From a virus: a stretch of 64,000 nucleotides of DNA. The stretch spans positions 12,546-76,545 of IMG/VR virus record IMGVR_UViG_3300013286_000012; one strand, given 5' to 3'. Under the pieces are notes generated by a model, which made no database searches, was not told the DNA's origin, and saw only the letters and a list, made by a program, of their open reading frames with translations. Positions 7,405 to 58,788 of the stretch are shown here, one piece after another (position 1 is the stretch's first letter; the number at the start of each line of letters is the position of its first letter). The position numbers were made by a program, and so were the translations under genes.

Positions 7405-7734
7405 ATGAATAAACATCAAGATGATTTAATTAAATCAATCGACTTTGCCAACGAATTTATGAAGGTAGTTCGTGGATTCAAAGTCGAACACGACCGACCT
7501 GACGGCTTGCCACAGGACGTTAAAGAACATCTTGCCAATCAACATCTCAACACCTTTATTGCAGAACGCAATCTAGAGCCAGAGATGCTCATCTGGGGAA
7601 TGCTCCACATGATTGAAATTTTATTGGAGTATTGTGATTTAGAACCAGAAAATTTAATGTCTGTCATGGATACATTCGTACAACACATTAAAGATAACTC
7701 AGAGATATATGGAGATAAAGATGAGAATGACTAG
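7405..7734 (+). CDS. hypothetical protein
   Basis: GGGAG RBS before ATG 7405. Confidence 0.65.
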   Translation: MNKHQDDLIKSIDFANEFMKVVRGFKVEHDRPDGLPQDVKEHLANQHLNTFIAERNLEPEMLIWGMLHMIEILLEYCDLEPENLMSVMDTFVQHIKDNSEIYGDKDEND

Positions 7735-8029
7735 ACCAAAGAAGGCACTATCTGTCGGATTCGAATTGACAACAGAGCGACCCGATATCGTTGATGCACC
7801 ATGTCAATCAGTTGACCCAGAGACGTTCTTTCCAGACCCAACAGACCTTGCGTTAACTCGTGAAGCAAAGTTGCTATGCAAACAATGTAATGTAAAAATT
7901 AAAAAAGATTGTCTCACATTTGCGCTTATCAACAAGATTGGTTACGGGATATGGGGTGGACTTACTACAGATGAAAGAAGAAACTTTAAACGTAGGGAGC
8001 AGAGAAGTGAAAGTAAGAATTCGCTATGA
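7721..8029 (+). CDS. whiB: WhiB family transcription factor
   Basis: C..DPETFFP..C..C..C with GIWGGLT turn motif. Confidence 0.92.
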   Translation: MRMTRPKKALSVGFELTTERPDIVDAPCQSVDPETFFPDPTDLALTREAKLLCKQCNVKIKKDCLTFALINKIGYGIWGGLTTDERRNFKRREQRSESKNSL

Positions 8030-24740: not shown

Positions 24741-25586
24741 TTAATCTCCAATCAAATCACACTGCTTACAACCACTAGGGTCAACATTACACTTCGGCAT
24801 AACGCCAGCGTCAACCGCATCATTAATCTGCTGTGCCTTGTAGAAGACTCTCTCAACCATGTCATAATCAGCCTTTACTGTGAACTCTTTGTAATCTTGG
24901 TCCATCTTTAATTCATATAAAAATACAATTTCTTTGGGCGCATCTTCTCCATACATACGATGAGCAAGTTCTAGATACATCTGACCTTGCAACAAGTGAC
25001 CACGGAATGGACGACGAATATTACGCCACGCCTTCTTTAAGTCATGGTCAGCATCACGGAGCAAATCTGGTGCCTCAAAGCGCAGCGTGCCTTCACCAAT
25101 AGACTTAATCTCAATCAAGAAATCATCATCAAGACCCTTGACCCAGCCATCGGTGTGTCCCGCAATACGAAGACTGTGGTCAACAAGTGCTACTTCGTCA
25201 TAAACTAACGTTGCACACTTGCAGTGTTCGCATACTTCTGGAGATAACCCTGCAGTAATGCCCTTACAATTTTGACATTTAAAATCTCCCCACATATTTC
25301 CCATCTCATAGATGCGATTTTGCCATTTAGCATGAATGAAATGACCCTCATCAAAGATATTTTGCAGACGAAGGTTGGGGTTTGCTTGTTTCTTGATACC
25401 ACCAGTAAGCAAGTAATAGGAATAACGATGGCAAAAGTCAGACCTAATCATCTCTGATGGATGAAGTACAATAGTACTGCGGTCATCTGGAACTCTCTTA
25501 AGTAGATGACGTTCAATAGGACCAAGAAGGCGCGTATCTGCTTTCTTAGTATCTAAGTATTTTTGTAAGTTATTCTTGACTACCAT
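24741..25586 (-). CDS. Cas4-like PD-(D/E)XK exonuclease
   Basis: HPSE..C, GHTDG, IEIKS, Q.QMY, C-terminal C..C..C. Confidence 0.85.
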   Translation of the reverse strand: MVVKNNLQKYLDTKKADTRLLGPIERHLLKRVPDDRSTIVLHPSEMIRSDFCHRYSYYLLTGGIKKQANPNLRLQNIFDEGHFIHAKWQNRIYEMGNMWGDFKCQNCKGITAGLSPEVCEHCKCATLVYDEVALVDHSLRIAGHTDGWVKGLDDDFLIEIKSIGEGTLRFEAPDLLRDADHDLKKAWRNIRRPFRGHLLQGQMYLELAHRMYGEDAPKEIVFLYELKMDQDYKEFTVKADYDMVERVFYKAQQINDAVDAGVMPKCNVDPSGCKQCDLIGD

Positions 25587-25915
25587 TATTTATCCCTCTC
25601 ATTACTAAAAATAAATTCTTGAAGCGTCATTTTTTTCTTGTACTTCTTCTTCCATTTTCTTATGAGAGCATTTCTTTCTCGATGAGAAAGTCCTCCCCAA
25701 ATACCGTGAGGCTCATCTCGACTTACTGCATCCCATAAACACTTTTCGCGTACAGGACACGGACTTTGACGAGATTCTCCAAAACAAATAGATTTTGCTT
25801 GTGTTGCAAGCACTTTGTATTGTTCTTTATCACGGGGTGGAAAAAAAATAAAAGTTGTATCGTCTTTGCCTCGGCAACGTGCTTCGTATACCCAAGCGTG
25901 GCGGGACTCATCCAT
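25586..25915 (-). CDS. whiB: WhiB family transcription factor
   Basis: W...ARC...FFP...C..CPV...C...GIWGGL. Confidence 0.92.
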   Translation of the reverse strand: MDESRHAWVYEARCRGKDDTTFIFFPPRDKEQYKVLATQAKSICFGESRQSPCPVREKCLWDAVSRDEPHGIWGGLSHRERNALIRKWKKKYKKKMTLQEFIFSNERDK

Positions 25916-51257: not shown

Positions 51258-52769
51258 TTAATTCAGCGTCTTTTGGCTGAGGTCGATGACGATGAACTCT
51301 GCTGGGTATTGAAGCGCCACACCAACTTGAATGTGAACCTCTCCATTGGCAATTGTTTGTGCTGTGTTGTTTTCATTATCACATTTAACAAAGTAAGCCT
51401 GAGTAGCGGTTGCTCCACGGAGACCGCCTTGGTTACGGTACTCATTGAGAAATGAGCCTAGGCTAGTGCGAATAAGAGACCAAAGATGCTCATCATTGTT
51501 TTCAAAGATTGCAAACTCTGAAAGATTCTTAAGGTTCTTACGAATAAAGATAAGCGAACGGCGCATATTTACATACTTATTTGCTGTGCCGTCTTGCTTA
51601 AGGGTACGAGCACCCATCACTGCAAGACCAGCGCCAGGTATCTGACGAATTGGATTTACAGGAGATGTGCTTGCATTCATGGTGTCCAGTTCAGTTGATG
51701 TAAATGTTTTCTCTACAGCAACAACTCCTTGAACGGTAGTTGCAATACCTGCTGGAGCCTTAAAGACTCCACGGTTAGCATCTGTTGAAAGGTAAAGACC
51801 TACAACTGCACCAGCAGGCTCAACTTTACGCAAGGCCCCTGTTCCACGTCCTAGTGGGTCTGCAACATAAATGTTTGGATAATAAACAGCAGCATTGCTG
51901 GTGCTTCTTAAACTTCCTGCAAATGAAACAGCGTTTGCTACAGTTAGGTCTGGGTCAGTTCCAAGGACAATAAAGCCATTGTTATCTTCTGCCCAAGATG
52001 TTGCTGCATCAAATACAGCATTTGGAGTTGTTACTAATGCGTTTGCATCTGGCAAAAATACTACAAGCGGACGGTCTAATGGAGTAAAACGATTAAAGAC
52101 CGAAGAACCGCTGGCCTTGTAATTGGTGTAATCAGTAGACGCTGTTGCTGTGCCGTTTGCTCCACTGGTGAGTGGGTAAGTTGCACTGGTAATGTTTTGA
52201 CCAGCATATCCAGCAATAACAGCAACAGAAATATTTGGTGAAACAGTATTGATTACAGTTGGACCAAAATCACTTGATGTTGCATCATCAAATATAACAT
52301 TCTCATAACGTTCTAAAAGGATATCGTCAGTAATGTTATTTGCAATTCCTGATTCTTTAAAGAGAGTTAATGTGTATGTGCTTGCAACAGACCCTGCAGT
52401 AACTACTACGCGGAGGTTGTTTCCATCTGTTCCAGCATTTTTAGATGTAACAGTTACTCGTGCTGTACTACCTGAATCTACTAAAGAAATAGATGCAGCA
52501 ACAGCATTTGCGGCCAATAAGCGTTGGACATAAAGTTCACGTCCGCCATTAGCAAAGAATGCTCCAACTTGGAAAGTTGCTGGATAGGAGGCGTTATAAC
52601 CTCCAAAGTACTTGGTAAATTCATACCAAGAATTAACAAGCGTGACTATCTCTGGTCCCTGTGCAAAAGGTGCAACCACAGCGCCAGCAGCATTTGCAGT
52701 AACTCCGTTTGGAACTACTGGTGGTAGAAGGCGTTCAGTAATGTAAACACCTGGGCGGCTATATGCCAT
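51258..52769 (-). CDS. tail sheath protein
   Basis: PGVYITE, YYP, RGVFKAPAG, GARTL, Y.N.RR, FE.ND, P.EFI. Confidence 0.96.
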   Translation of the reverse strand: MAYSRPGVYITERLLPPVVPNGVTANAAGAVVAPFAQGPEIVTLVNSWYEFTKYFGGYNASYPATFQVGAFFANGGRELYVQRLLAANAVAASISLVDSGSTARVTVTSKNAGTDGNNLRVVVTAGSVASTYTLTLFKESGIANNITDDILLERYENVIFDDATSSDFGPTVINTVSPNISVAVIAGYAGQNITSATYPLTSGANGTATASTDYTNYKASGSSVFNRFTPLDRPLVVFLPDANALVTTPNAVFDAATSWAEDNNGFIVLGTDPDLTVANAVSFAGSLRSTSNAAVYYPNIYVADPLGRGTGALRKVEPAGAVVGLYLSTDANRGVFKAPAGIATTVQGVVAVEKTFTSTELDTMNASTSPVNPIRQIPGAGLAVMGARTLKQDGTANKYVNMRRSLIFIRKNLKNLSEFAIFENNDEHLWSLIRTSLGSFLNEYRNQGGLRGATATQAYFVKCDNENNTAQTIANGEVHIQVGVALQYPAEFIVIDLSQKTLN

Positions 52770-52800: not shown

Positions 52801-53463
52801 TTATGGTTTTGGTATAGTAATCGGAGCGATGGCATTAAACTGATTTCTTCCAAGTTTTTGGGAACCAGTTGTGCCTGTAACGCGGATATTTAGCGCCTTA
52901 TAGAGTTGGTTGTATGTTGCTGGTGCAATCTCGGATGAGATGCGAACCGTAATTGCGTTTACAAATAAACGCTTTCCTTGTTCAGTAACATCTCTTTTAG
53001 AGATATCTAGAACATCCAATCGACGTACTGTGCCATCAGTAGGCTGTAGCACAGCAAATCGAAGTGGAATTTTTGTGTATAGCAACTGAGCCAGTAGTTC
53101 ACGGTCGTGGCGTGGTTGTCTAGAGTACGTAGTTATTTGATAGTCAATGCGAATTGGAATAGGATAACTAATATCCCAATTATGTAATTCTGGATTATAC
53201 GCAATTGCTTGTGTCATTTGCGCTGGGTTATCAAGATACATTGGCTTTACACGACCACGCATGGCACGGCTAGTATCTTCTCCAACATCAATCATATCAA
53301 TAGTGATGTACGGATATTTTTGGTCAGTAAGTTCTTGGTCAGGTTGACCAAACCACACCCCTACTTTTCGAGGCGTTCCATTGCCCGTGGCTTTTTGGTC
53401 TGTAACAACCATGTCCTTAAGAAGATTACGTAATGCTTCATCTTCTGCTAGTAAAAATGTCAT
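52801..53463 (-). CDS. tail terminator/sheath stabiliser-like protein
   Basis: YP.ITI, P....YQI; directly upstream of sheath. Confidence 0.65.
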   Translation of the reverse strand: MTFLLAEDEALRNLLKDMVVTDQKATGNGTPRKVGVWFGQPDQELTDQKYPYITIDMIDVGEDTSRAMRGRVKPMYLDNPAQMTQAIAYNPELHNWDISYPIPIRIDYQITTYSRQPRHDRELLAQLLYTKIPLRFAVLQPTDGTVRRLDVLDISKRDVTEQGKRLFVNAITVRISSEIAPATYNQLYKALNIRVTGTTGSQKLGRNQFNAIAPITIPKP

Positions 53464-53780
53464 TTGTGCCCCCTCAAATATTTAGACGTTTGAGACAATA
53501 AAAACTTCTCTGATGTTGCTGTGCGGTTTCCAAAACGACGGATTGCAGCAGTTGGGCGTTGAGACGTGCTCCCGTATTCAAGGTCCATAACTCTATTACG
53601 GTGGTCTTCATGGGAGTGGACTGTAAAAGCGCCATCATTATGGCGTACAGACAGGTGGCGGACAACGTCATCAGGCCAGCCAGATTTACGAGCCTCAATA
53701 CGAAGATGGGCTGACATAAAGCGAGCAGTGTCTTTAGTGGCTTTAGCCAATGAGTCCTTTACTTGTAAAAGATAACTCAC
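53460..53780 (-). CDS. neck/tail completion protein (HK97 gp10-like)
   Basis: LEYG....P...IR.F motif. Confidence 0.55.
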   Translation of the reverse strand: MSYLLQVKDSLAKATKDTARFMSAHLRIEARKSGWPDDVVRHLSVRHNDGAFTVHSHEDHRNRVMDLEYGSTSQRPTAAIRRFGNRTATSEKFLLSQTSKYLRGHK

Positions 53781-53971
53781 TTCTTTTTCTTCGCCTTCGA
53801 CACAGTTCTTACTCCTCCTGCAATATAAGCAGCAGTAGAGGCTAAGATTAAACCTGCGACGATTGGGCGTTTTTCGGTAGGGCGGAATCCAAACACGCCC
53901 TTAATAAATTCTTCACGCTCGTGCTGATTGTTCATTTCAGCAACCTGTTCGTACCATGGCTTCCAGGCCAT
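53777..53971 (-). CDS. small membrane-anchored protein
   Basis: AGGGG RBS; hydrophobic helix then KKKK. Confidence 0.55.
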   Translation of the reverse strand: MAWKPWYEQVAEMNNQHEREEFIKGVFGFRPTEKRPIVAGLILASTAAYIAGGVRTVSKAKKKK

Positions 53972-54051
53972 AAGTAATCCCCTTTTCATCGCAAGCAGTG
54001 GGTCTGCACGAGGTACGCATGCACTCTCGATACCGCAATGATAAAGAAGAA

Positions 54052-54069
54052 AGGGCCCTTTCGGGCCCT
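54052..54069 (-). terminator. terminator closing the basic-peptide operon
   Basis: AGGGCCC-4 nt loop-GGGCCCT followed by T-rich tract on - strand. Confidence 0.75.
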
Positions 54070-54075
54070 AACTAC

Positions 54076-54294
54076 TTACTTCTTTTTAATCTTTTTGGCT
54101 AACGCCTTATCCATCTTCTCGTCCATTGCACGAGATGGCTTCTTTTTATCCATGGCCTTATCAGCCTTGGCAAACTTCTTCTTCTGCGCTGAGTCCATGC
54201 CCTTCATAACCTTAGCATCTTGCTTCTTATCTGCTTTCTTGCAAGCGCCATTACATCCTGGCTTTGAACAACCACATCCACATGATTTACACAT
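54076..54294 (-). CDS. Cys-head/Lys-tail peptide (MCKSCGCGC..., 72 aa)
   Basis: ORF track; TAATG coupling. Confidence 0.75.
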   Translation of the reverse strand: MCKSCGCGCSKPGCNGACKKADKKQDAKVMKGMDSAQKKKFAKADKAMDKKKPSRAMDEKMDKALAKKIKKK

Positions 54295-54437
54295 TACATT
54301 CCCTTCTTTCTATTCATCATAGATTTCTTTGATATTGCAATTGCTGCTTGCTGTGCTTTCTTAGCAGGTGCTTTTTTAGCAGGTGCCTTCTTCATTGCCT
54401 TCTTCATATTGCCCATGCAACCACAGGTAGCGCACAT
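54294..54437 (-). CDS. Cys-head/Lys-tail peptide (MCATCGCMG...KKAPAKKAPAKK, 47 aa), not in ORF track
   Basis: translated by hand; TAATG coupling at both ends; histone H1-like PAKK repeats. Confidence 0.75.
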   Translation of the reverse strand: MCATCGCMGNMKKAMKKAPAKKAPAKKAQQAAIAISKKSMMNRKKGM

Positions 54438-54604
54438 TACTTTTTCTTCTTTCTTAGGGCTGCAAAATCAGCCGCATCAATCTTGCTCTTATCTCCAGCA
54501 ACGGCAGCAATCTTCTTCTGCTTTGGAGATAACGTCTTAGCGCCCTTCTTGCAAGCGCCTTTACAATTTGGCTTTGAACAACCACACCCACATGACTTAC
54601 ACAT
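54437..54604 (-). CDS. Cys-head/Lys-tail peptide (MCKSCGCGCSKPNC..., 55 aa), not in ORF track
   Basis: translated by hand; TAGATG junction. Confidence 0.75.
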   Translation of the reverse strand: MCKSCGCGCSKPNCKGACKKGAKTLSPKQKKIAAVAGDKSKIDAADFAALRKKKK

Positions 54605-54727
54605 CTACTTGCTCTCTTTCTTCTTAGTTGGCTTTTTCTTGGTTTTAGCAAATTTTTTATTTGCCGCAGCAAGAGTCTTCATTCCGTGCTTATCTTTAGG
54701 CTTTCCGCATCCGCAGGTAGCGCACAT
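54605..54727 (-). CDS. Cys-head/Lys-tail peptide (MCATCGCGKPKDKHG..., 40 aa), not in ORF track
   Basis: AGGAG RBS; translated by hand. Confidence 0.75.
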   Translation of the reverse strand: MCATCGCGKPKDKHGMKTLAAANKKFAKTKKKPTKKKESK

Positions 54728-54736
54728 GTCCTTCTC

Positions 54737-54973
54737 CTATCGGTAGTTAGCGGTTTTTTTTGCAATCTTTTTAGGTTGCTCAACAAACTGCTTACCTTTT
54801 TTATTACCCTTAGCCTTAGCCTTGTTGGTCGCAGCCTTTTCTGAAGGAGATAAAGCATCCCATGCTTTGTCAGGTAAGTAACGCTTTTTTCCTTTTGATT
54901 CTTTGCCATCGGAAGTGCGCCATTTTTCATCGCCCCAATTTTTTAAAGATTGCTGTGGTTTTGCAAGAGCCAT
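54737..54973 (-). CDS. basic small protein (DUF5872-like C-terminal half)
   Basis: QQSLK.W..EKWRT, RYLP.KAW..LS..EK.ATN. Confidence 0.7.
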   Translation of the reverse strand: MALAKPQQSLKNWGDEKWRTSDGKESKGKKRYLPDKAWDALSPSEKAATNKAKAKGNKKGKQFVEQPKKIAKKTANYR

Positions 54974-55173
54974 TAGTTCTTGTATCCTCCGCCTGATTTC
55001 TTATATTCAGAAGCAAGAAGTTGGGCTTTGCGTGCTGACCATTCTCCAGGGTCTCCACCTTTAGACCCCGCCTTAATCTTTTTAAATAAGGACGCCCTCA
55101 TTCCAGGCTTGGTGTAATTACCAGCCTCATTAACCTTTGACTTTGGCTTTGGCTTTGCTGACTTTTTTTCCAC
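54973..55173 (-). CDS. basic small protein (DUF5872-like N-terminal half)
   Basis: YTKP, KGG.PG.WSARKAQ....EY...GGGY. Confidence 0.7.
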   Translation of the reverse strand: MEKKSAKPKPKSKVNEAGNYTKPGMRASLFKKIKAGSKGGDPGEWSARKAQLLASEYKKSGGGYKN

Positions 55174-55279
55174 TTGTTACTCCTTTACCTGCTGGTACAC
55201 AATTAGGAACTTTCTTTCCATTCTTCATCTTCATGCCTTTTTGTACATATCCATCCCAACACGGTCCTTGCGATGCCAT
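55130..55279 (-). CDS. basic peptide with CW.GY...VPNCV motif (49 aa), not in ORF track
   Basis: TAATG coupling; MASQGPCWDGYVQKGMKMKNGKKVPNCVP... Confidence 0.7.
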   Translation of the reverse strand: MASQGPCWDGYVQKGMKMKNGKKVPNCVPAGKGVTSGKKVSKAKAKVKG

Positions 55280-55584
55280 TACTTTTTTCTCTGATTCTTC
55301 TTGTGCATTGCTGCTGCCTTCTTCTTAGCATCGGCCTTTGATGTTGCACCCCATGCCTGAAGAGATAATAATAATCTTGTTGGTTCGCCGTTGGGCTTAT
55401 GTTCTGGTCCTGGATTTCCGCCCATACGAGCAAGGAAAGATGCACGACGAGGATTGTTACCAGACTTAACTGGTGGCTTTAAATTAGAACCAGGGTTAGC
55501 CTTTTCATAAGACTTGCGACCTGCTTCATTAAGTCCACCCTTGGGATTCTTACCAGATTTCTTTTGCCATGCTTCACTAGCCAT
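55279..55584 (-). CDS. basic small protein (DUF6321-like)
   Basis: AWQ.K.GKNP.GGLN..GR, RR.SF.ARM.G. Confidence 0.7.
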   Translation of the reverse strand: MASEAWQKKSGKNPKGGLNEAGRKSYEKANPGSNLKPPVKSGNNPRRASFLARMGGNPGPEHKPNGEPTRLLLSLQAWGATSKADAKKKAAAMHKKNQRKK

Positions 55585-55765
55585 TTTTCTTATGCCAATC
55601 TTTTGTGGCCTTTACTCCTTGAGCAATAGTCTTAGAGCCAGCCTTCTTGGTTAAATTAATTTTGTCGTACTTGCCCTTGTTGCCAGCGTGGTCGACAATG
55701 ACGTCGCCACTCTTGTTCTTTTTGATGGTGTGCTTTTCACCAGCAACCTTGATTGTTTTAGCCAT
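55577..55765 (-). CDS. basic small protein
   Basis: Lys-rich, overlapping start/stop. Confidence 0.65.
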   Translation of the reverse strand: MAKTIKVAGEKHTIKKNKSGDVIVDHAGNKGKYDKINLTKKAGSKTIAQGVKATKDWHKKNG

Positions 55766-55946
55766 TCTTTTTTTTCTTCTTTGCCATGCCGCTCTCGCTC
55801 ATAGCAATTGCAACTGCTTGTTTTTTTGATTTAACAATTGGGCCTTTACCAGGACCAGGTCTTCCTGAGTGCAACTTACCCGCTTTGTATTCTTTCATAA
55901 CAATTTCAACTTTGCCTTTAGAAACTTTCTTCGGAGTTGTAGCCAT
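55758..55946 (-). CDS. basic small protein (DUF6496-like)
   Basis: VM.E.K.G.LHSG...V.S.KQA.AIAMSE. Confidence 0.7.
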   Translation of the reverse strand: MATTPKKVSKGKVEIVMKEYKAGKLHSGRPGPGKGPIVKSKKQAVAIAMSESGMAKKKKKNG

Positions 55947-56056
55947 TACTCGCCTTCTTCCTCTTCATCCTCAAAATCATCAAGGTCTTCCAAGTCTACA
56001 CTGTCAAAATCTTCTTCAAATAGTGAAGGGTCAATTTCTAATTCAAAGTCTTCCAC
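55946..56056 (-). CDS. ultra-acidic peptide (36 aa, 21 D/E, no K/R), not in ORF track
   Basis: AGGAG RBS + GTG; MEDFELEIDPSLFEEDFDSVDLEDLDDFEDEEEEGE; TAATG-coupled to next gene. Confidence 0.75.
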   Translation of the reverse strand: MEDFELEIDPSLFEEDFDSVDLEDLDDFEDEEEEGE

Positions 56057-56065
56057 AATAATCTC

Positions 56066-56599
56066 CTAGTTAGAATAGGACTGAAACTGAGGGTCGTTAA
56101 CCATTTCTTCGGCGTTGACTTGGTTGCAGTCTATGGTGACTACAGAATAGCGGTCCTTGTAACGTCCACGGGGTAAAACACGCGCAGGAACAAATACTTC
56201 TCCTTGGAATACGACGCGGTCTTTAATGTGGAGGTTTGGATTTGCAATCATTTCTGGAAGAAGACGGTTTAAATCGTCTACGGCAATTACTAGGCGCAAG
56301 GTATCTGTGGTGTAGTAGCCGCGCTCATTCATGACGTTGGTTCCACGAAGTTGTTGAGCCATAATTACAGGCAAATCAAATGGGTTATTCCAACGGCGTC
56401 CCTTGCCCGTTTCTTGGTTAGAGACATCGTAGATGGGGTCCACCCAATTGGCATAATGCGAAGCCAAGACATTGGGGTCCCAAGTCCACCAAGATACGGT
56501 GGTTCCTACAGGGTCACGAAGTTCGTCAACAATGCCTTCGTCCATAGAGGCAGACTCAAAATCAATTTTAAATCTACCTTGTACTTTGTTTCCACGCAT
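56066..56599 (-). CDS. probable head-closure/neck protein
   Basis: beta-rich, DR.VF.G.VF; position upstream of tail completion genes. Confidence 0.5.
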   Translation of the reverse strand: MRGNKVQGRFKIDFESASMDEGIVDELRDPVGTTVSWWTWDPNVLASHYANWVDPIYDVSNQETGKGRRWNNPFDLPVIMAQQLRGTNVMNERGYYTTDTLRLVIAVDDLNRLLPEMIANPNLHIKDRVVFQGEVFVPARVLPRGRYKDRYSVVTIDCNQVNAEEMVNDPQFQSYSN

Positions 56600-56614: not shown

Positions 56615-57355
56615 TCATTTATAGGTTTTATCTTGTCTAAACATAGTTTTGTATCTATCAAAAAATTTAGTTTGAAGTTTAGTAGTGATATTTTGTTGTG
56701 CTTTTAACTCTGTAGCGTTTCCTATTTGCAATTCCCAATCGTTTCTTTTAAACGGAATGACTTGGGCTATAGGAGTTCCTTTTGGAATAAGTCCTTCAAA
56801 ATTAGGGTCGTTAATTACAAAGGGAAAATTAACGGGCGCAAAATATTCATCGGTGTCTACAATTCCAGGAAGAATGGTAAACGGCGATTCTCGATGCATG
56901 GGTTGAACAAAAAAGGCTGAGTAGCCTTTAGGGGTTCGAATTGACCATGGGTTAACCCACTTAGCATAAGGGTGTTCATTGCGTGCGGGGTGCTCTGGGG
57001 CTTGCTCAATAGGGTGAAAACCTACAAGTCCAAAATTAGACCATTCAAAATGTTGCATTTTTTTGTTTGGTAAATCTGTAACAACCTCACCAGTTTCAGC
57101 ATCTTTTGGTTCATATTCTTGTATTGAAACATACACATCAGCAGGAAGTGTAATGATGTATCCAGCAACAATGGCATCAAAAACTGGCATACAGCGTTTA
57201 ATAGTTGCTTGAGTTCCTGCATTACCATTTGGTTTTTTAACTCCTCCAACATATGAGTCAGTATTTTTATACCATTCAGGAACAAACTTTAAAGAAGGTA
57301 GTGGTTGTTCTAAATCATCAAAGCCACTTGTGTTTGTAAAAACAATAGTATTCAT
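56615..57355 (-). CDS. dUTPase-like fold protein (DUF6065-like), paralog 1
   Basis: PEWYK, KRCMP, PW.I.TP.GYS, GIVDTD, IP.GTP..Q.IPFKR. Confidence 0.7.
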   Translation of the reverse strand: MNTIVFTNTSGFDDLEQPLPSLKFVPEWYKNTDSYVGGVKKPNGNAGTQATIKRCMPVFDAIVAGYIITLPADVYVSIQEYEPKDAETGEVVTDLPNKKMQHFEWSNFGLVGFHPIEQAPEHPARNEHPYAKWVNPWSIRTPKGYSAFFVQPMHRESPFTILPGIVDTDEYFAPVNFPFVINDPNFEGLIPKGTPIAQVIPFKRNDWELQIGNATELKAQQNITTKLQTKFFDRYKTMFRQDKTYK

Positions 57356-57376
57356 TTTATAAACCTTTTTAAAAAA

Positions 57377-58093
57377 TTAATTGTAAGTTTTTTTACGCCA
57401 AAAATTTAATTTGTACCAATTATTTGCAGTAGATCTAGAAAAAAAAGTATTGTAATTTACTTCTTCAAATAATAAAGGATCTTCTTTAGAATTCCAATTT
57501 TCTCTTTTAAAAGGAATAATTTGTGCAAAAGGAGTGCCTTTTGGAATAATTCCATTAAAAGATTTATTAAAAAATACTGGTACATTTCCTTTTTGTAAAA
57601 TTACACGTCCATCTACTATTGCGCTTAATGTTGTAAAAGGTAAATCATGACGATTTAAAGGATGAGTAATTAAAGCACTGTATCCTTCTGGTATTTCATA
57701 GTAAACGTGAGTTACCCAAACAAAATGTTGAGAAGAAAATCCTTCGGGTATAGGAAGAAGATTATTAAGTTCTAAATCAATACGAATAGAAACTGGCACA
57801 TATCCTAACGTTTCATTCCATGTAATAACAGTATCTATGTCTGTTAAGTTATCAACTGCAATATCGCACGGAGTAGTTAAAACATATCCTGTAGCAAAAG
57901 ATTCTAAAAATGGTACACACGATTTAAAAGATTTTACATAAGGAATTCTATTTGGATTATGATCTTTTGAATATTTTGATGTATTTTTATACCAATCAGG
58001 AATAACCATTTTTGCTGAAATAAAAGGATTTTTATAAAAAATTAAATCTGTAAAGTATCTAATATTAGTTTTTTTATTTTTTTTAAATTTCAT
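57377..58093 (-). CDS. dUTPase-like fold protein, paralog 2
   Basis: PDWYK, K.C.PF, P.GYS, IP.GTP.AQIIPFKR. Confidence 0.7.
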   Translation of the reverse strand: MKFKKNKKTNIRYFTDLIFYKNPFISAKMVIPDWYKNTSKYSKDHNPNRIPYVKSFKSCVPFLESFATGYVLTTPCDIAVDNLTDIDTVITWNETLGYVPVSIRIDLELNNLLPIPEGFSSQHFVWVTHVYYEIPEGYSALITHPLNRHDLPFTTLSAIVDGRVILQKGNVPVFFNKSFNGIIPKGTPFAQIIPFKRENWNSKEDPLLFEEVNYNTFFSRSTANNWYKLNFWRKKTYN

Positions 58094-58788
58094 TTATATT
58101 CTTTCTTACTCCACCAAAATTTTTTATAACGATCAAAAAATACTCGGTTAAACTTACTTATATCTATAGCATATTTTTTTTGTTCTTTTTTTCCTCCTAA
58201 AGAAGAAACCCATAATTCTCTTTTAAAGGGAATAATTTGTAAAAATGGAGTTCCAGCAGGAATCATTCCTTCAAAATTTGGATCACGTAATTTTAAAAAC
58301 ATATTAAATGGAAGAGAGTAGGTATCGGTATCAACGATTCCACTAGCGCAAGTAATTGGTCCAGGTTCGTGATGTTGAGGTTCCATAACCATAATAGACC
58401 AACCATTTGGAGTTTTAATTGACCAAGGTATTACAATTCTTACAGCATAGTTAATGTCTCTTGAATAAGGATGGTTTTGAAACTGATCTAATATTTGAAA
58501 TTGTATTGCATCATTGGTTGCCCATTGAAAATAAGGGCCTTCAGGAGTTTGACGAATATAAATATCATATGGAGTTTCCATAATGTAACCAGCAGTCATC
58601 ATATCCCACAAAGGCATACACCTTTTCACAGTAGCCATGGGTGTGCCGTCTATTGTTGGTGCTTTTTTACCACTAGGATCTAAATAAGATTTTGCATTTT
58701 TATACCATTGAGGTATGTATTCAATGGCGGGTTTAGGTTTTTCTAAAACTCCTTTAGGATTTTGAATGTCCGTAAAAATAATTTTCAT
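58090..58788 (-). CDS. dUTPase-like fold protein, paralog 3
   Basis: PQWYK, KRCMP, GIVDTD, IPAGTP..QIIPFKR. Confidence 0.7.
   Translation of the reverse strand: MKIIFTDIQNPKGVLEKPKPAIEYIPQWYKNAKSYLDPSGKKAPTIDGTPMATVKRCMPLWDMMTAGYIMETPYDIYIRQTPEGPYFQWATNDAIQFQILDQFQNHPYSRDINYAVRIVIPWSIKTPNGWSIMVMEPQHHEPGPITCASGIVDTDTYSLPFNMFLKLRDPNFEGMIPAGTPFLQIIPFKRELWVSSLGGKKEQKKYAIDISKFNRVFFDRYKKFWWSKKEYK

What the first reader, a model, noticed from the sequence alone, without database searches (positions are those of the whole stretch)
54076..54727. Four tandem MCxxCGC-headed peptides in alternating A-B-A-B order with unrelated basic tails
Seen: consecutive coupled ORFs start MCATCGCG (54727), MCKSCGCGCSKPNCKGACKK (54604), MCATCGCM (54437) and MCKSCGCGCSKPGCNGACKK (54294). 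The Cys heads are conserved and the Lys-rich tails are not. Inference: the head is a portable module, such as a metallothionein-like Zn/Cu clamp, a disulfide cross-linker as in Cys-rich protamines, or a capsid-targeting tag, grafted onto variable cationic cargo. The order suggests duplication of a two-gene unit.
Basis: partly seen in the sequence, partly recalled or inferred. Interest (0 to 1): 0.72.

Follow-up and report, generated by a model that had tools for sequence, protein, structure and literature searches.

The report
Phage microproteins with HypB-like cysteine caps
Four tiny, coupled phage genes each begin with a cysteine motif matching the high-affinity nickel site at the start of bacterial HypB, joined to different lysine-rich tails; this undescribed family is near-universal in a large group of uncultured aquatic phages and probably makes metal-capped, DNA-binding peptides.

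Summary
Four adjacent minus-strand ORFs of 40, 55, 47 and 72 aa each start Met-Cys-x-x-Cys-Gly-Cys (4 pattern matches against 0.01 expected). They close a small-gene operon that ends at a terminator, between a neck-protein gene and the tail-sheath genes of a WhiB-encoding, actinophage-like myovirus.

The short head (A) matches the N-terminal CxxCGC site of E. coli HypB in sequence and register. In HypB, Cys2/5/7 plus the N-terminal amine bind Ni(II) at picomolar affinity. The long head (B) extends this to six invariant Cys. Relatives carry 8-10 Cys, metallothionein-like versions.

- Head cysteines are invariant while their codons vary, so selection acts on the protein.
- The motif sits at the N-terminus in about 88 of 95 unbiased occurrences.
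- It occurs only on ORFs of 84 aa or less (352 of 352).
- 57 of 58 related phages, sampled through a neighbouring tail gene, carry at least one.

Each tail is a conserved family, and heads swap among them (A, B, 8-Cys or none). The A-B-A-B order is not a recent two-gene duplication.

The function is inferred: metal-thiolate caps on polycationic late peptides. No paper was found in the library searched. First readers of this scan noted the same family in at least six other genomes.

The parts
54605..54727 (-). A1: 40-aa microprotein. Head A (Met-Cys-Ala-Thr-Cys-Gly-Cys, codons at 54707-54727), then Gly-Lys-Pro-Lys-Asp-Lys-His-Gly ('KHG' extension with His14) and a Lys-rich tail. Net charge +12, pI 10.2.
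   Evidence: The tail family has 85 unique members, all carrying head A. A GGAG/AAGGA ribosome-binding site lies just upstream.
54437..54604 (-). B1: 55-aa microprotein. Head B has 20 residues with six Cys at positions 2, 5, 7, 9, 14 and 18 (codons at 54545-54604). The tail belongs to the EF-hand-loop-like family, but the loop is degenerate in this copy.
   Evidence: Relatives give sub-threshold EF-hand/dockerin Pfam hits (E 0.002-0.02, below cut-off). This copy gives none.
54294..54437 (-). A2: 47-aa microprotein. Head A followed by Met-Gly-Asn-Met, then a Pro-Ala-Lys-Lys repeat tail. It has 7 Met and a conserved C-terminal Ser-Met-x-x-Lys-Lys-Gly-Met end.
   Evidence: (tail family T2). The TAATG overlaps with B1 and B2 follow from the ORF coordinates.
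54076..54294 (-). B2: 72-aa microprotein. Head B (codons at 54235-54294) plus the 'DKKQ' tail, predicted as three helices.
   Evidence: 123 homologue clusters. 83 tail-family members in the sequences of alignment A2 were counted by head: 44 headless, 25 head A, 6 Gly/Tyr-extended, 5 head B, 2 eight-Cys, 1 other. AlphaFold mean pLDDT 70, with helices at 17-30, 35-49 and 55-71 and the head as coil.
54042..54069 (-). Intrinsic-terminator-like hairpin (7-bp stem, 6 G-C pairs, GAAA loop) followed by a T-rich run. It ends the small-gene operon.
54737..56056 (-). Upstream part of the same operon: one very acidic 36-aa ORF and six small basic ORFs (phrog_14910, phrog_17747, DUF6321, DUF6496 and others). 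This is context, not part of the Cys family here. Homologues of the 55577-55765 ORF carry head A in other phages.
   Evidence: tail family T10; L043, L150.
56066..56599 (-). Conserved upstream flank: 177-aa protein with a predicted phage neck (head-closure/stopper-like) fold.
   Evidence: Homologue in 144 of 228 head-selected loci. AlphaFold pLDDT 76.7. Foldseek top hits are phage neck and connector chains, E 2.5e-4 and below, prob 1.0, TM 0.38-0.57.
52801..53989 (-). Conserved downstream flank: three ORFs of 70, 106 and 220 aa directly before the tail sheath gene.
   Evidence: Homologues in 20, 132 and 169 of 228 loci. The order is neck gene, then small ORFs, then Cys peptides, then these ORFs, then sheath.
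51258..52769 (-). Tail sheath gene (context). It marks the start of the tail module.
   Evidence: phrog_23, E 4e-46. The best cultured relatives are Streptomyces phages at 45-48% identity.

Best explanation
The four genes encode small polycationic proteins (net charge +12 to +16) whose first residues form a thiolate-rich metal site. Head A is the same Met-Cys-x-x-Cys-Gly-Cys motif that starts HypB. In HypB, after Met removal, the free N-terminal amine and three Cys thiolates hold Ni(II) in a square plane, and the isolated motif peptide also binds Zn(II). Head B adds three more Cys and could hold a second ion or a small cluster. The caps sit on interchangeable Lys-rich tails. One tail has Pro-Ala-Lys-Lys repeats, one is a three-helix Lys/Asp/Met-rich domain and one is an EF-hand-loop-like family, so the tails most likely bind nucleic acid or other polyanions. 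The peptides are made late, in coupled amounts, from the neck region of the structural module. I infer that they act with the virion or the packaged or ejected DNA. Shown: anatomy, conservation, N-terminal register, modularity and genomic position. Inferred: metal binding, which metal, DNA binding and virion association.
For: Motif identity: E. coli hypB translated here begins Met-Cys-Thr-Thr-Cys-Gly-Cys-Gly, and A1 matches 7 of these 8 residues in the same register. [quoted passage not shown] N-terminal register: in 79 loci chosen through a neighbouring gene, 84 of 95 C-x-x-C-G-C occurrences in six frames directly follow Met, and 4 more follow GTG or other alternative starts. Protein-level selection: the Cys residues, Gly6 and head-B positions 10-20 are invariant or nearly so while codons vary. 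Gly6 is near-invariant in the unbiased sample. Importance: 57 of 58 relatives carry at least one such ORF. Cys-rich continuum: stand-alone 23-35-aa peptides with 8 Cys and no aromatic residues occur in the same slot. Late, coupled expression: 101 of about 125 junctions are TAATG overlaps. The slot lies between a neck-fold gene and the sheath operon and ends at a terminator. In other phage lineages, head-A peptides lie just downstream of the major head protein. Polycation character is shown.
Against: No experiment bears on these peptides. No Pfam metallothionein family or any other family matches. AlphaFold gives the head as low-confidence coil. HypB's selectivity residue Glu9 is Lys or another residue here, so the metal may not be Ni. 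Some head-A peptides in other lineages have non-basic tails, so the head's role cannot depend on a polycation. One 21-aa head-A ORF follows a primase gene rather than structural genes. Rare read-through fusions place the head internally.
Confidence: 0.45

Rival explanations
1. Cytoplasmic metal-handling genes of the auxiliary type. The peptides sequester or deliver Ni, Zn or Cu in the infected cell, to supply phage or host metalloenzymes or to starve host ones. They are not virion- or DNA-associated.
For: Same motif evidence as the main explanation. The 8-10-Cys stand-alone forms look like mini-metallothioneins. Tails are rich in Met and Asp, and an EF-hand-like loop suggests further ion binding.
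Against: The position in the neck and structural operon is conserved, which is unusual for metabolic genes. The extreme positive charge is not needed for metal buffering. No metal transporter or Ni enzyme was noticed nearby, and no HypB-family gene is in the record.
Confidence: 0.2
2. Protamine-like condensers that work through thiol chemistry without a metal. Lys-rich tails neutralise DNA, and N-terminal Cys clusters form disulfides once the particle meets oxidising water.
For: Lys content of 26-35% and Pro-Ala-Lys-Lys repeats. Late structural-operon position. Near-universal presence.
Against: A precise C-x-x-C-G-C spacing, an invariant Gly6 and a strict N-terminal register are not required for disulfide cross-links, but they are the defining features of a known metal site. 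Non-basic tails also exist.
Confidence: 0.12
3. Iron-sulfur cluster ligands. The 4-8 Cys heads, mainly B and the 8-Cys form, hold an Fe-S cluster and serve as redox or O2 sensors or as partners of the phage's WhiB proteins.
For: A Clostridium FeoC-like protein next to feoA contains the first nine residues of head B internally. From my own knowledge, the Cys loop of FeoC is reported to bind an Fe-S cluster. The phage encodes two WhiB Fe-S proteins.
Against: This rests on a single coincidental match. Head A has only three Cys. Nothing explains the N-terminal register or the polycationic tails.
Confidence: 0.07
4. The head is a sorting, assembly or cleavage tag that directs small cargo into the prohead or neck (capsid-targeting tag), or the genes are RiPP-type precursors with an N-terminal core.
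For: The module is portable. It lies in the structural module, and one locus has a peptidase-family gene directly upstream.
Against: The head is never found on proteins longer than 84 aa. Headless orthologues occupy the same slot. No modifying enzyme such as radical SAM, YcaO or a lanthionine synthetase is in the conserved slot.
Confidence: 0.08
5. Not translated: the ORFs are chance frames or the conserved element is an RNA or DNA signal.
For: No expression data exist. The ORFs are short, and gene callers often miss them.
Against: Synonymous variation with invariant amino acids. 352 of 352 matches open short ORFs ending in Lys-rich tails. Conserved TAATG coupling and purine-rich ribosome-binding regions. 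More than 120 viral contigs for each head against 0.05 and about 14 expected by my own estimate.
Confidence: 0.03

Closest known systems
N-terminal high-affinity Ni(II) site of HypB (CxxCGC motif; E. coli hydrogenase maturation GTPase)
   Same: Same motif, Met-Cys-x-x-Cys-Gly-Cys-Gly, at the very N-terminus with a small residue after Met, so that Met removal would expose the amine ligand. The isolated motif peptide is reported to bind metal on its own, which makes it a plausible portable cap.
   Different: There is no GTPase domain and no HypB homology beyond 7-8 residues, and no hyp genes are in the record. HypB's Glu9 is replaced by Lys or another residue. Head B and the 8-Cys head add Cys that HypB lacks. 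The context is a phage neck operon, not hydrogenase maturation.
Metallothioneins (operational class of small Cys-rich metal-thiolate proteins)
   Same: Small size, C-x-C and C-x-x-C spacing, Lys next to Cys and almost no aromatic residues. Relatives with 8 Cys in 23-35 residues fit the operational definition.
   Different: No match to any Pfam metallothionein family at E up to 10. In the window's own genes the Cys are confined to a 7-20-residue cap on a long Cys-free tail (overall Cys 6-11%, calculated from the counts). The strict N-terminal register is not a metallothionein feature.
Small basic nucleic-acid-binding proteins with metal or Cys sites: protamines, retroviral nucleocapsid Zn-knuckle proteins, histone H1 and actinobacterial HU C-terminal Pro-Ala-Lys-Lys repeats (from my own knowledge)
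   Same: Very basic, 40-72 aa, low complexity and made with virion proteins. A1 has a Cys3-His set (Cys2, 5, 7 and His14), and A2 has Pro-Ala-Lys-Lys repeats.
   Different: No sequence homology. The Cys spacing differs from the retroviral Cys-Cys-His-Cys knuckle. DNA binding and packaging are untested.
EF-hand / dockerin Ca-binding loops
   Same: Relatives of B1 carry a 12-residue Asp-x-Asn/Asp-x-Asn/Asp-Gly-x-Leu-x-x-x-Asp loop that Pfam EF-hand and dockerin models detect weakly.
   Different: All scores are below the curated cut-offs. There is a single loop without the paired helix-loop-helix, and the window's own B1 has lost most of the loop ligands.

Membership tests
HypB (NCBIfam TIGR00073 / CobW-HypB-UreG GTPases) | P-loop GTPase domain of about 200 residues | tested here: not met
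   The peptides are 40-72 aa with no Pfam hit. A TIGR00073 search of the whole virus record found nothing.
HypB N-terminal metal site (motif-level likeness only) | Cys at positions 2, 5 and 7 with Gly6, directly after the initiator Met | tested here: met
   All four ORFs have it. E. coli hypB translated here shows the same start. The register is conserved in about 88 of 95 unbiased occurrences.
HypB N-terminal metal site (motif-level likeness only) | Picomolar square-planar Ni(II) binding through three thiolates and the N-terminal amine | not testable with these tools
   Known for HypB from PMC12284835 and PMC7055735. It needs metal titration or XAS on the phage peptides.
Metallothionein (Pfam families and operational definition) | Sequence match to a curated metallothionein family | tested here: not met
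   No metallothionein family at E up to 10 for the window peptides or for the 8-10-Cys relatives.
Metallothionein (Pfam families and operational definition) | Low mass, Cys about 15-30% of residues, C-x-C / C-x-x-C motifs, few aromatic residues | tested here: inconclusive
   This is met by 8-Cys relatives of 23-35 aa. The window's four genes have 6-11% Cys overall (calculated from the counts), concentrated in the cap, and 0-1 aromatic residues.
EF-hand | Score above the Pfam gathering cut-off, with the canonical 12-residue loop | tested here: not met
   Relatives score 12-16 bits against cut-offs of 25-30. The window's B1 has no hit.
RiPP precursor | Co-located modifying enzyme or enzymes | tested here: not met
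   The conserved slot holds only a neck-fold gene, small ORFs and tail genes.
Phage internal / DNA-condensing virion proteins | Presence in purified virions | not testable with these tools
   No cultured phage carries the genes. A marine phage proteomics paper had nothing relevant.

The most novel reading that the evidence does not exclude
Phages of abundant aquatic Actinobacteria carry a core, previously unrecognised class of virion-associated 'metal-capped polycations'. An N-terminal HypB-type or metallothionein-type thiolate site loads Ni, Zn or Cu, and exchangeable Lys-rich tails bind the genome. The peptides are packaged and ejected with the DNA, as a phage analogue of Zn-knuckle nucleocapsid proteins or Zn-protamines. 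The cap evolves as a 7-25-residue cassette that is swapped between orthologous genes.
Probability: 0.2. Interest if true: 0.85.

Novelty: new variant of a known kind. Interest (0 to 1): 0.64.

Why it matters
If the caps bind metal, this would be a phage-encoded family of metal-binding microproteins, which I did not find described. It is near-universal in a widespread lineage of uncultured aquatic myoviruses that look like actinophages, and routine gene calling often misses it. It offers a natural 7-residue high-affinity metal tag on many scaffolds. It is a clear case of sub-domain module shuffling at gene starts. It also suggests a possible link between phage particle biology and trace-metal economy in lakes and oceans. 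The hypotheses are cheap to test with synthetic peptides.

Tried and rejected
- Pfam, PHROGs, ESM Atlas and PDB fold searches on the peptides gave nothing usable. One weak phrog_30632 hit to A2 (E 2e-4) falls in its low-complexity Lys/Ala stretch, and I did not rely on it.
- tblastn and blastn against 50,697 cultured-phage records found no headed peptide. BLAST's low-complexity filter may hide some.
- A recent two-gene duplication or gene conversion is rejected. The tails are unrelated, and head DNA identity is the same within and between genomes.
- A prophage or host clue from 185,579 species genomes is rejected. The only hits were a 2.3-kb phage fragment binned into an Omnitrophota MAG and an unrelated Clostridium protein.
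- The 'longer' search for large proteins bearing the head found only read-through or mis-started fusions of 71-106 aa.
- A conserved terminator after the array was not confirmed by my strict perfect-stem scan. It found one in 34 of 195 loci, although downstream folding energy is lower than in shuffles (-10.0 against -6.6 kcal/mol). The window's own terminator is clear.
- A survey of HypB N-termini across genomes could not be run. The control genomes returned no loci.
- Literature searches for phage metallothioneins or this motif in phages found nothing.

Full report
**1. Observation**

The minus strand of 54076-54727 holds four consecutive small ORFs:
- A1: 54605-54727, 40 aa.
- B1: 54437-54604, 55 aa.
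- A2: 54294-54437, 47 aa.
- B2: 54076-54294, 72 aa.

Each begins Met-Cys-x-x-Cys-Gly-Cys. A1 and A2 carry a 3-Cys head, here called head A. B1 and B2 carry a 20-residue head with Cys at positions 2, 5, 7, 9, 14 and 18, here called head B.

The junctions are TAG directly followed by ATG, then two TAATG overlaps. A good ribosome-binding site precedes A1. A G+C-rich hairpin with a T-run at 54069-54052 follows B2. The back-translated head pattern matches 4 times in the window against 0.01 expected from shuffles. It matches nowhere else in the 76.5-kb virus record.

The long plus-strand ORFs over this stretch (54038-54322 and 54348-54746) are shadows of Lys codons. Synonymous variation follows the minus-strand frame.

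**2. Genomic setting**

The window is most of an IMG/VR virus record estimated 76% complete. It encodes sheath, tube and baseplate proteins and two WhiB proteins above the Pfam cut-off. For the sheath and the gene upstream of the small-gene operon, the closest cultured relatives are Streptomyces myoviruses such as BRock and LuckySocke. An actinobacterial host is therefore likely, but this is an inference.

The four genes end an operon of about eleven small genes at 54076-56056. The operon lies between a 177-aa protein and three conserved ORFs that precede the sheath gene. The 177-aa protein's predicted fold (pLDDT 76.7) matches phage neck and connector chains, with Foldseek E of 2.5e-4 and below, prob 1.0 and TM only 0.38-0.57. 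In the Streptomyces relatives the same interval holds a tailspike and larger genes instead.

**3. The family elsewhere**

- B2 has 123 homologue clusters in metagenome proteins.
My own estimate of the chance expectation is about 0.05 and about 14 matches.
- In the fetched loci, 352 headed ORFs (281 unique) were found, and all are 84 aa or shorter.
- Arrays are common: BA 49, AA 32, AB 18, BAB 6, BAA 4 and ABAB once, the last only in this window.
- 101 of about 125 junctions are TAATG overlaps.
- Of 228 head-selected loci, 154 have the sheath homologue, 169 the 220-aa downstream gene and 144 the neck-fold gene, in the same order.
- In an independent sample of 58 loci chosen through the 220-aa gene alone, 57 carry at least one headed ORF within 2.5 kb upstream.
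- Head A also occurs in other phage lineages, about 0.6-1.5 kb downstream of a phrog_1357 major head protein and on non-basic tails. In one case it follows a primase gene.
- Head B is absent from 185,579 species genomes, apart from one mis-binned phage fragment and one unrelated Clostridium protein.
- No cultured-phage record showed the peptides.

**4. Selection and register**

- Across 106 distinct head-B DNA versions, every Cys and positions 10-20 are invariant or nearly so while their codons vary. Pro12, for example, uses all four codons.
- Across 174 head-A versions, His14 is present in 99.
- In the unbiased loci, 84 of 95 C-x-x-C-G-C occurrences in all six frames directly follow Met. Four of the remaining 11 follow GTG or another alternative start of the same gene.
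- Every small ORF in the slot with three or more Cys in its first 12 residues begins Met-Cys-x-x-Cys, and all but one have Gly at position 6.

The motif is therefore under protein-level selection, and its N-terminal position is part of what is selected.

**5. Modularity**

Each tail is nevertheless a conserved family:
- **A1:** a 'KHG' family with 85 unique members, all carrying head A.
- **B1:** an EF-hand-loop-like family.
- **A2:** a Met-rich family with Pro-Ala-Lys-Lys repeats and a conserved C-terminal Lys-Lys-Gly-Met end.
- **B2:** the 'DKKQ' family.

Heads swap among tails:
- The EF-like tail occurs with head B, head A or a Gly/Tyr-extended head A.
- The DKKQ tail occurs with head B, head A, the extended head, an 8-Cys head or no head. 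The counts are 5, 25, 6, 2 and 44, plus 1 other, of 83.
- A headless gene of this window (55577-55765) has head-A-bearing homologues elsewhere.

Further Cys modules exist in relatives:
- A mirror-symmetric 8-Cys head (C-x2-C-x-C-x-C ... C-x-C-x-C-x2-C) that also stands alone as 30-35-aa peptides.
- A 4-Cys internal module.
- A 23-aa peptide with 8 Cys.

The usual order is [x-EF-like] | [A-KHG-KKGM-end] | [x-DKKQ]. The window adds one more head-A gene in front. B-head DNA identity within genomes (0.853) equals that between genomes (0.846). The A-B-A-B order is therefore not a recent duplication or conversion product.

**6. What the head resembles**

I checked this in two ways.

First, E. coli MG1655 hypB translated here starts Met-Cys-Thr-Thr-Cys-Gly-Cys-Gly. 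A1 matches 7 of these 8 residues in the same register.

Second, two papers state that this N-terminal CxxCGC motif binds Ni(II) with pico- to subpicomolar affinity. The site is square planar and is made of Cys2, Cys5, Cys7 and the N-terminal amine. A short peptide of the motif also responds to Zn(II) and Ni(II) (PMC12284835 and PMC7055735).

The strict N-terminal register in the phage family fits a role for the free amine, and Cys after Met allows Met removal (established knowledge). The peptides are not HypB family members. They have no GTPase domain, and no HypB-family match exists in the record. HypB's selectivity residue Glu9 is not conserved here, so the preferred metal is open:
- A1 offers a Cys3-His set.
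- A2 offers nearby Met residues.
- Head B offers six thiolates.

No Pfam metallothionein family matches, even for the 8-10-Cys relatives. 'Metallothionein-like' therefore applies only in the operational sense.

**7. The tails**

All four peptides have pI 9.9-10.5 and net charge +12 to +16, with 26-35% Lys. The B2 tail is predicted as three helices at moderate confidence, and no PDB fold matches it. Relatives of B1 give repeated sub-threshold EF-hand and dockerin hits. The window's own copy does not.

**8. Most likely mechanism**

I read these as metal-thiolate caps on polycationic microproteins. They are made late, in coupled amounts, from the neck region of the structural module, and probably act on nucleic acid or within the particle.
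- Metal binding by the head: about 0.65-0.7 likely.
- Ni as the specific metal: about 0.25.
- The whole package, including a DNA or virion role: 0.45.

The rivals are listed with their tests in the report sections. They are cytoplasmic metal handling, metal-free disulfide cross-linking, Fe-S ligation, a sorting tag or RiPP core, and non-translation. None of the functional steps is shown; they are inferences from motif identity, conservation and position.

**9. Novelty and caveats**

Searches of the paper library found HypB work only, and nothing on phage peptides with this motif or on phage metallothioneins. First readers of this scan noted the same family independently in at least six other genomes. 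It is therefore recurrent, not a one-off.

Limits of this work:
- The head-selected loci are biased by the search pattern. This is offset by the neighbour-selected sample.
- Host assignment is indirect.

Noticed in passing
window 7709-8029 (+) and 25586-25915 (-): Two WhiB-family genes score above the Pfam cut-off (65.9 and 60.7 bits). With Streptomyces-phage-like sheath and neck genes, they point to an actinobacterial host.
   Followed up: partly
window 56615-58788 (-): Three tandem paralogues of phrog_7084 (246, 238 and 232 aa; function unknown) lie just upstream of the neck-fold gene.
   Followed up: no
L237:4757-5020 (-) (Clostridium collagenovorans): An 87-aa FeoC-like protein next to a FeoA gene contains the first nine residues of head B internally. 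This is the only cellular hit among 185,579 species genomes and may be a convergent Cys loop.
   Followed up: partly
L238 (2.3-kb contig binned as a Candidatus Omnitrophota MAG): The contig is a fragment of this phage lineage, with a B | A | Gly/Tyr-extended-head array followed by the conserved downstream genes. It is probably mis-binned viral DNA. Its head-A gene joins the tail parts that are split between A1 and A2 in the window.
   Followed up: partly
L227:6473-6574, L254:3971-4078, L204:2838-2909, L021:4945-5151: Stand-alone 23-35-aa peptides with 8 Cys in a mirror-symmetric arrangement occur in the same slot of related phages. So does a 68-aa peptide with 10 Cys that combines head B, a 4-Cys module and the EF-like loop.
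   Followed up: partly
window 54294-54329 (C-terminus of A2) and many loci: A conserved C-terminal end (Ser-Met-Asn/Val-Arg/Lys-Lys-Lys-Gly-Met-stop) closes several otherwise different head-A tails. It could be a second short functional motif.
   Followed up: no
proteins P0138 and P0142: In rare variants the stop codon between adjacent microgenes is replaced by Gln. This fuses two peptides and makes the second head internal.
   Followed up: no
window 55577-55765 (-); L043 and L150: This headless 62-aa gene of the window has homologues in other phages that carry head A at their N-terminus. Head gain and loss therefore extends beyond the four genes of the finding.
   Followed up: partly
window 54737-55584 (-): The small basic genes upstream (phrog_14910, phrog_17747, DUF6321) share 65-70% DNA identity with genes of cultured marine phages of unrelated hosts (Methylophilales, Roseobacter, Pelagibacter, Puniceispirillum, cyanophages). 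This suggests wide exchange of these microgenes.
   Followed up: partly
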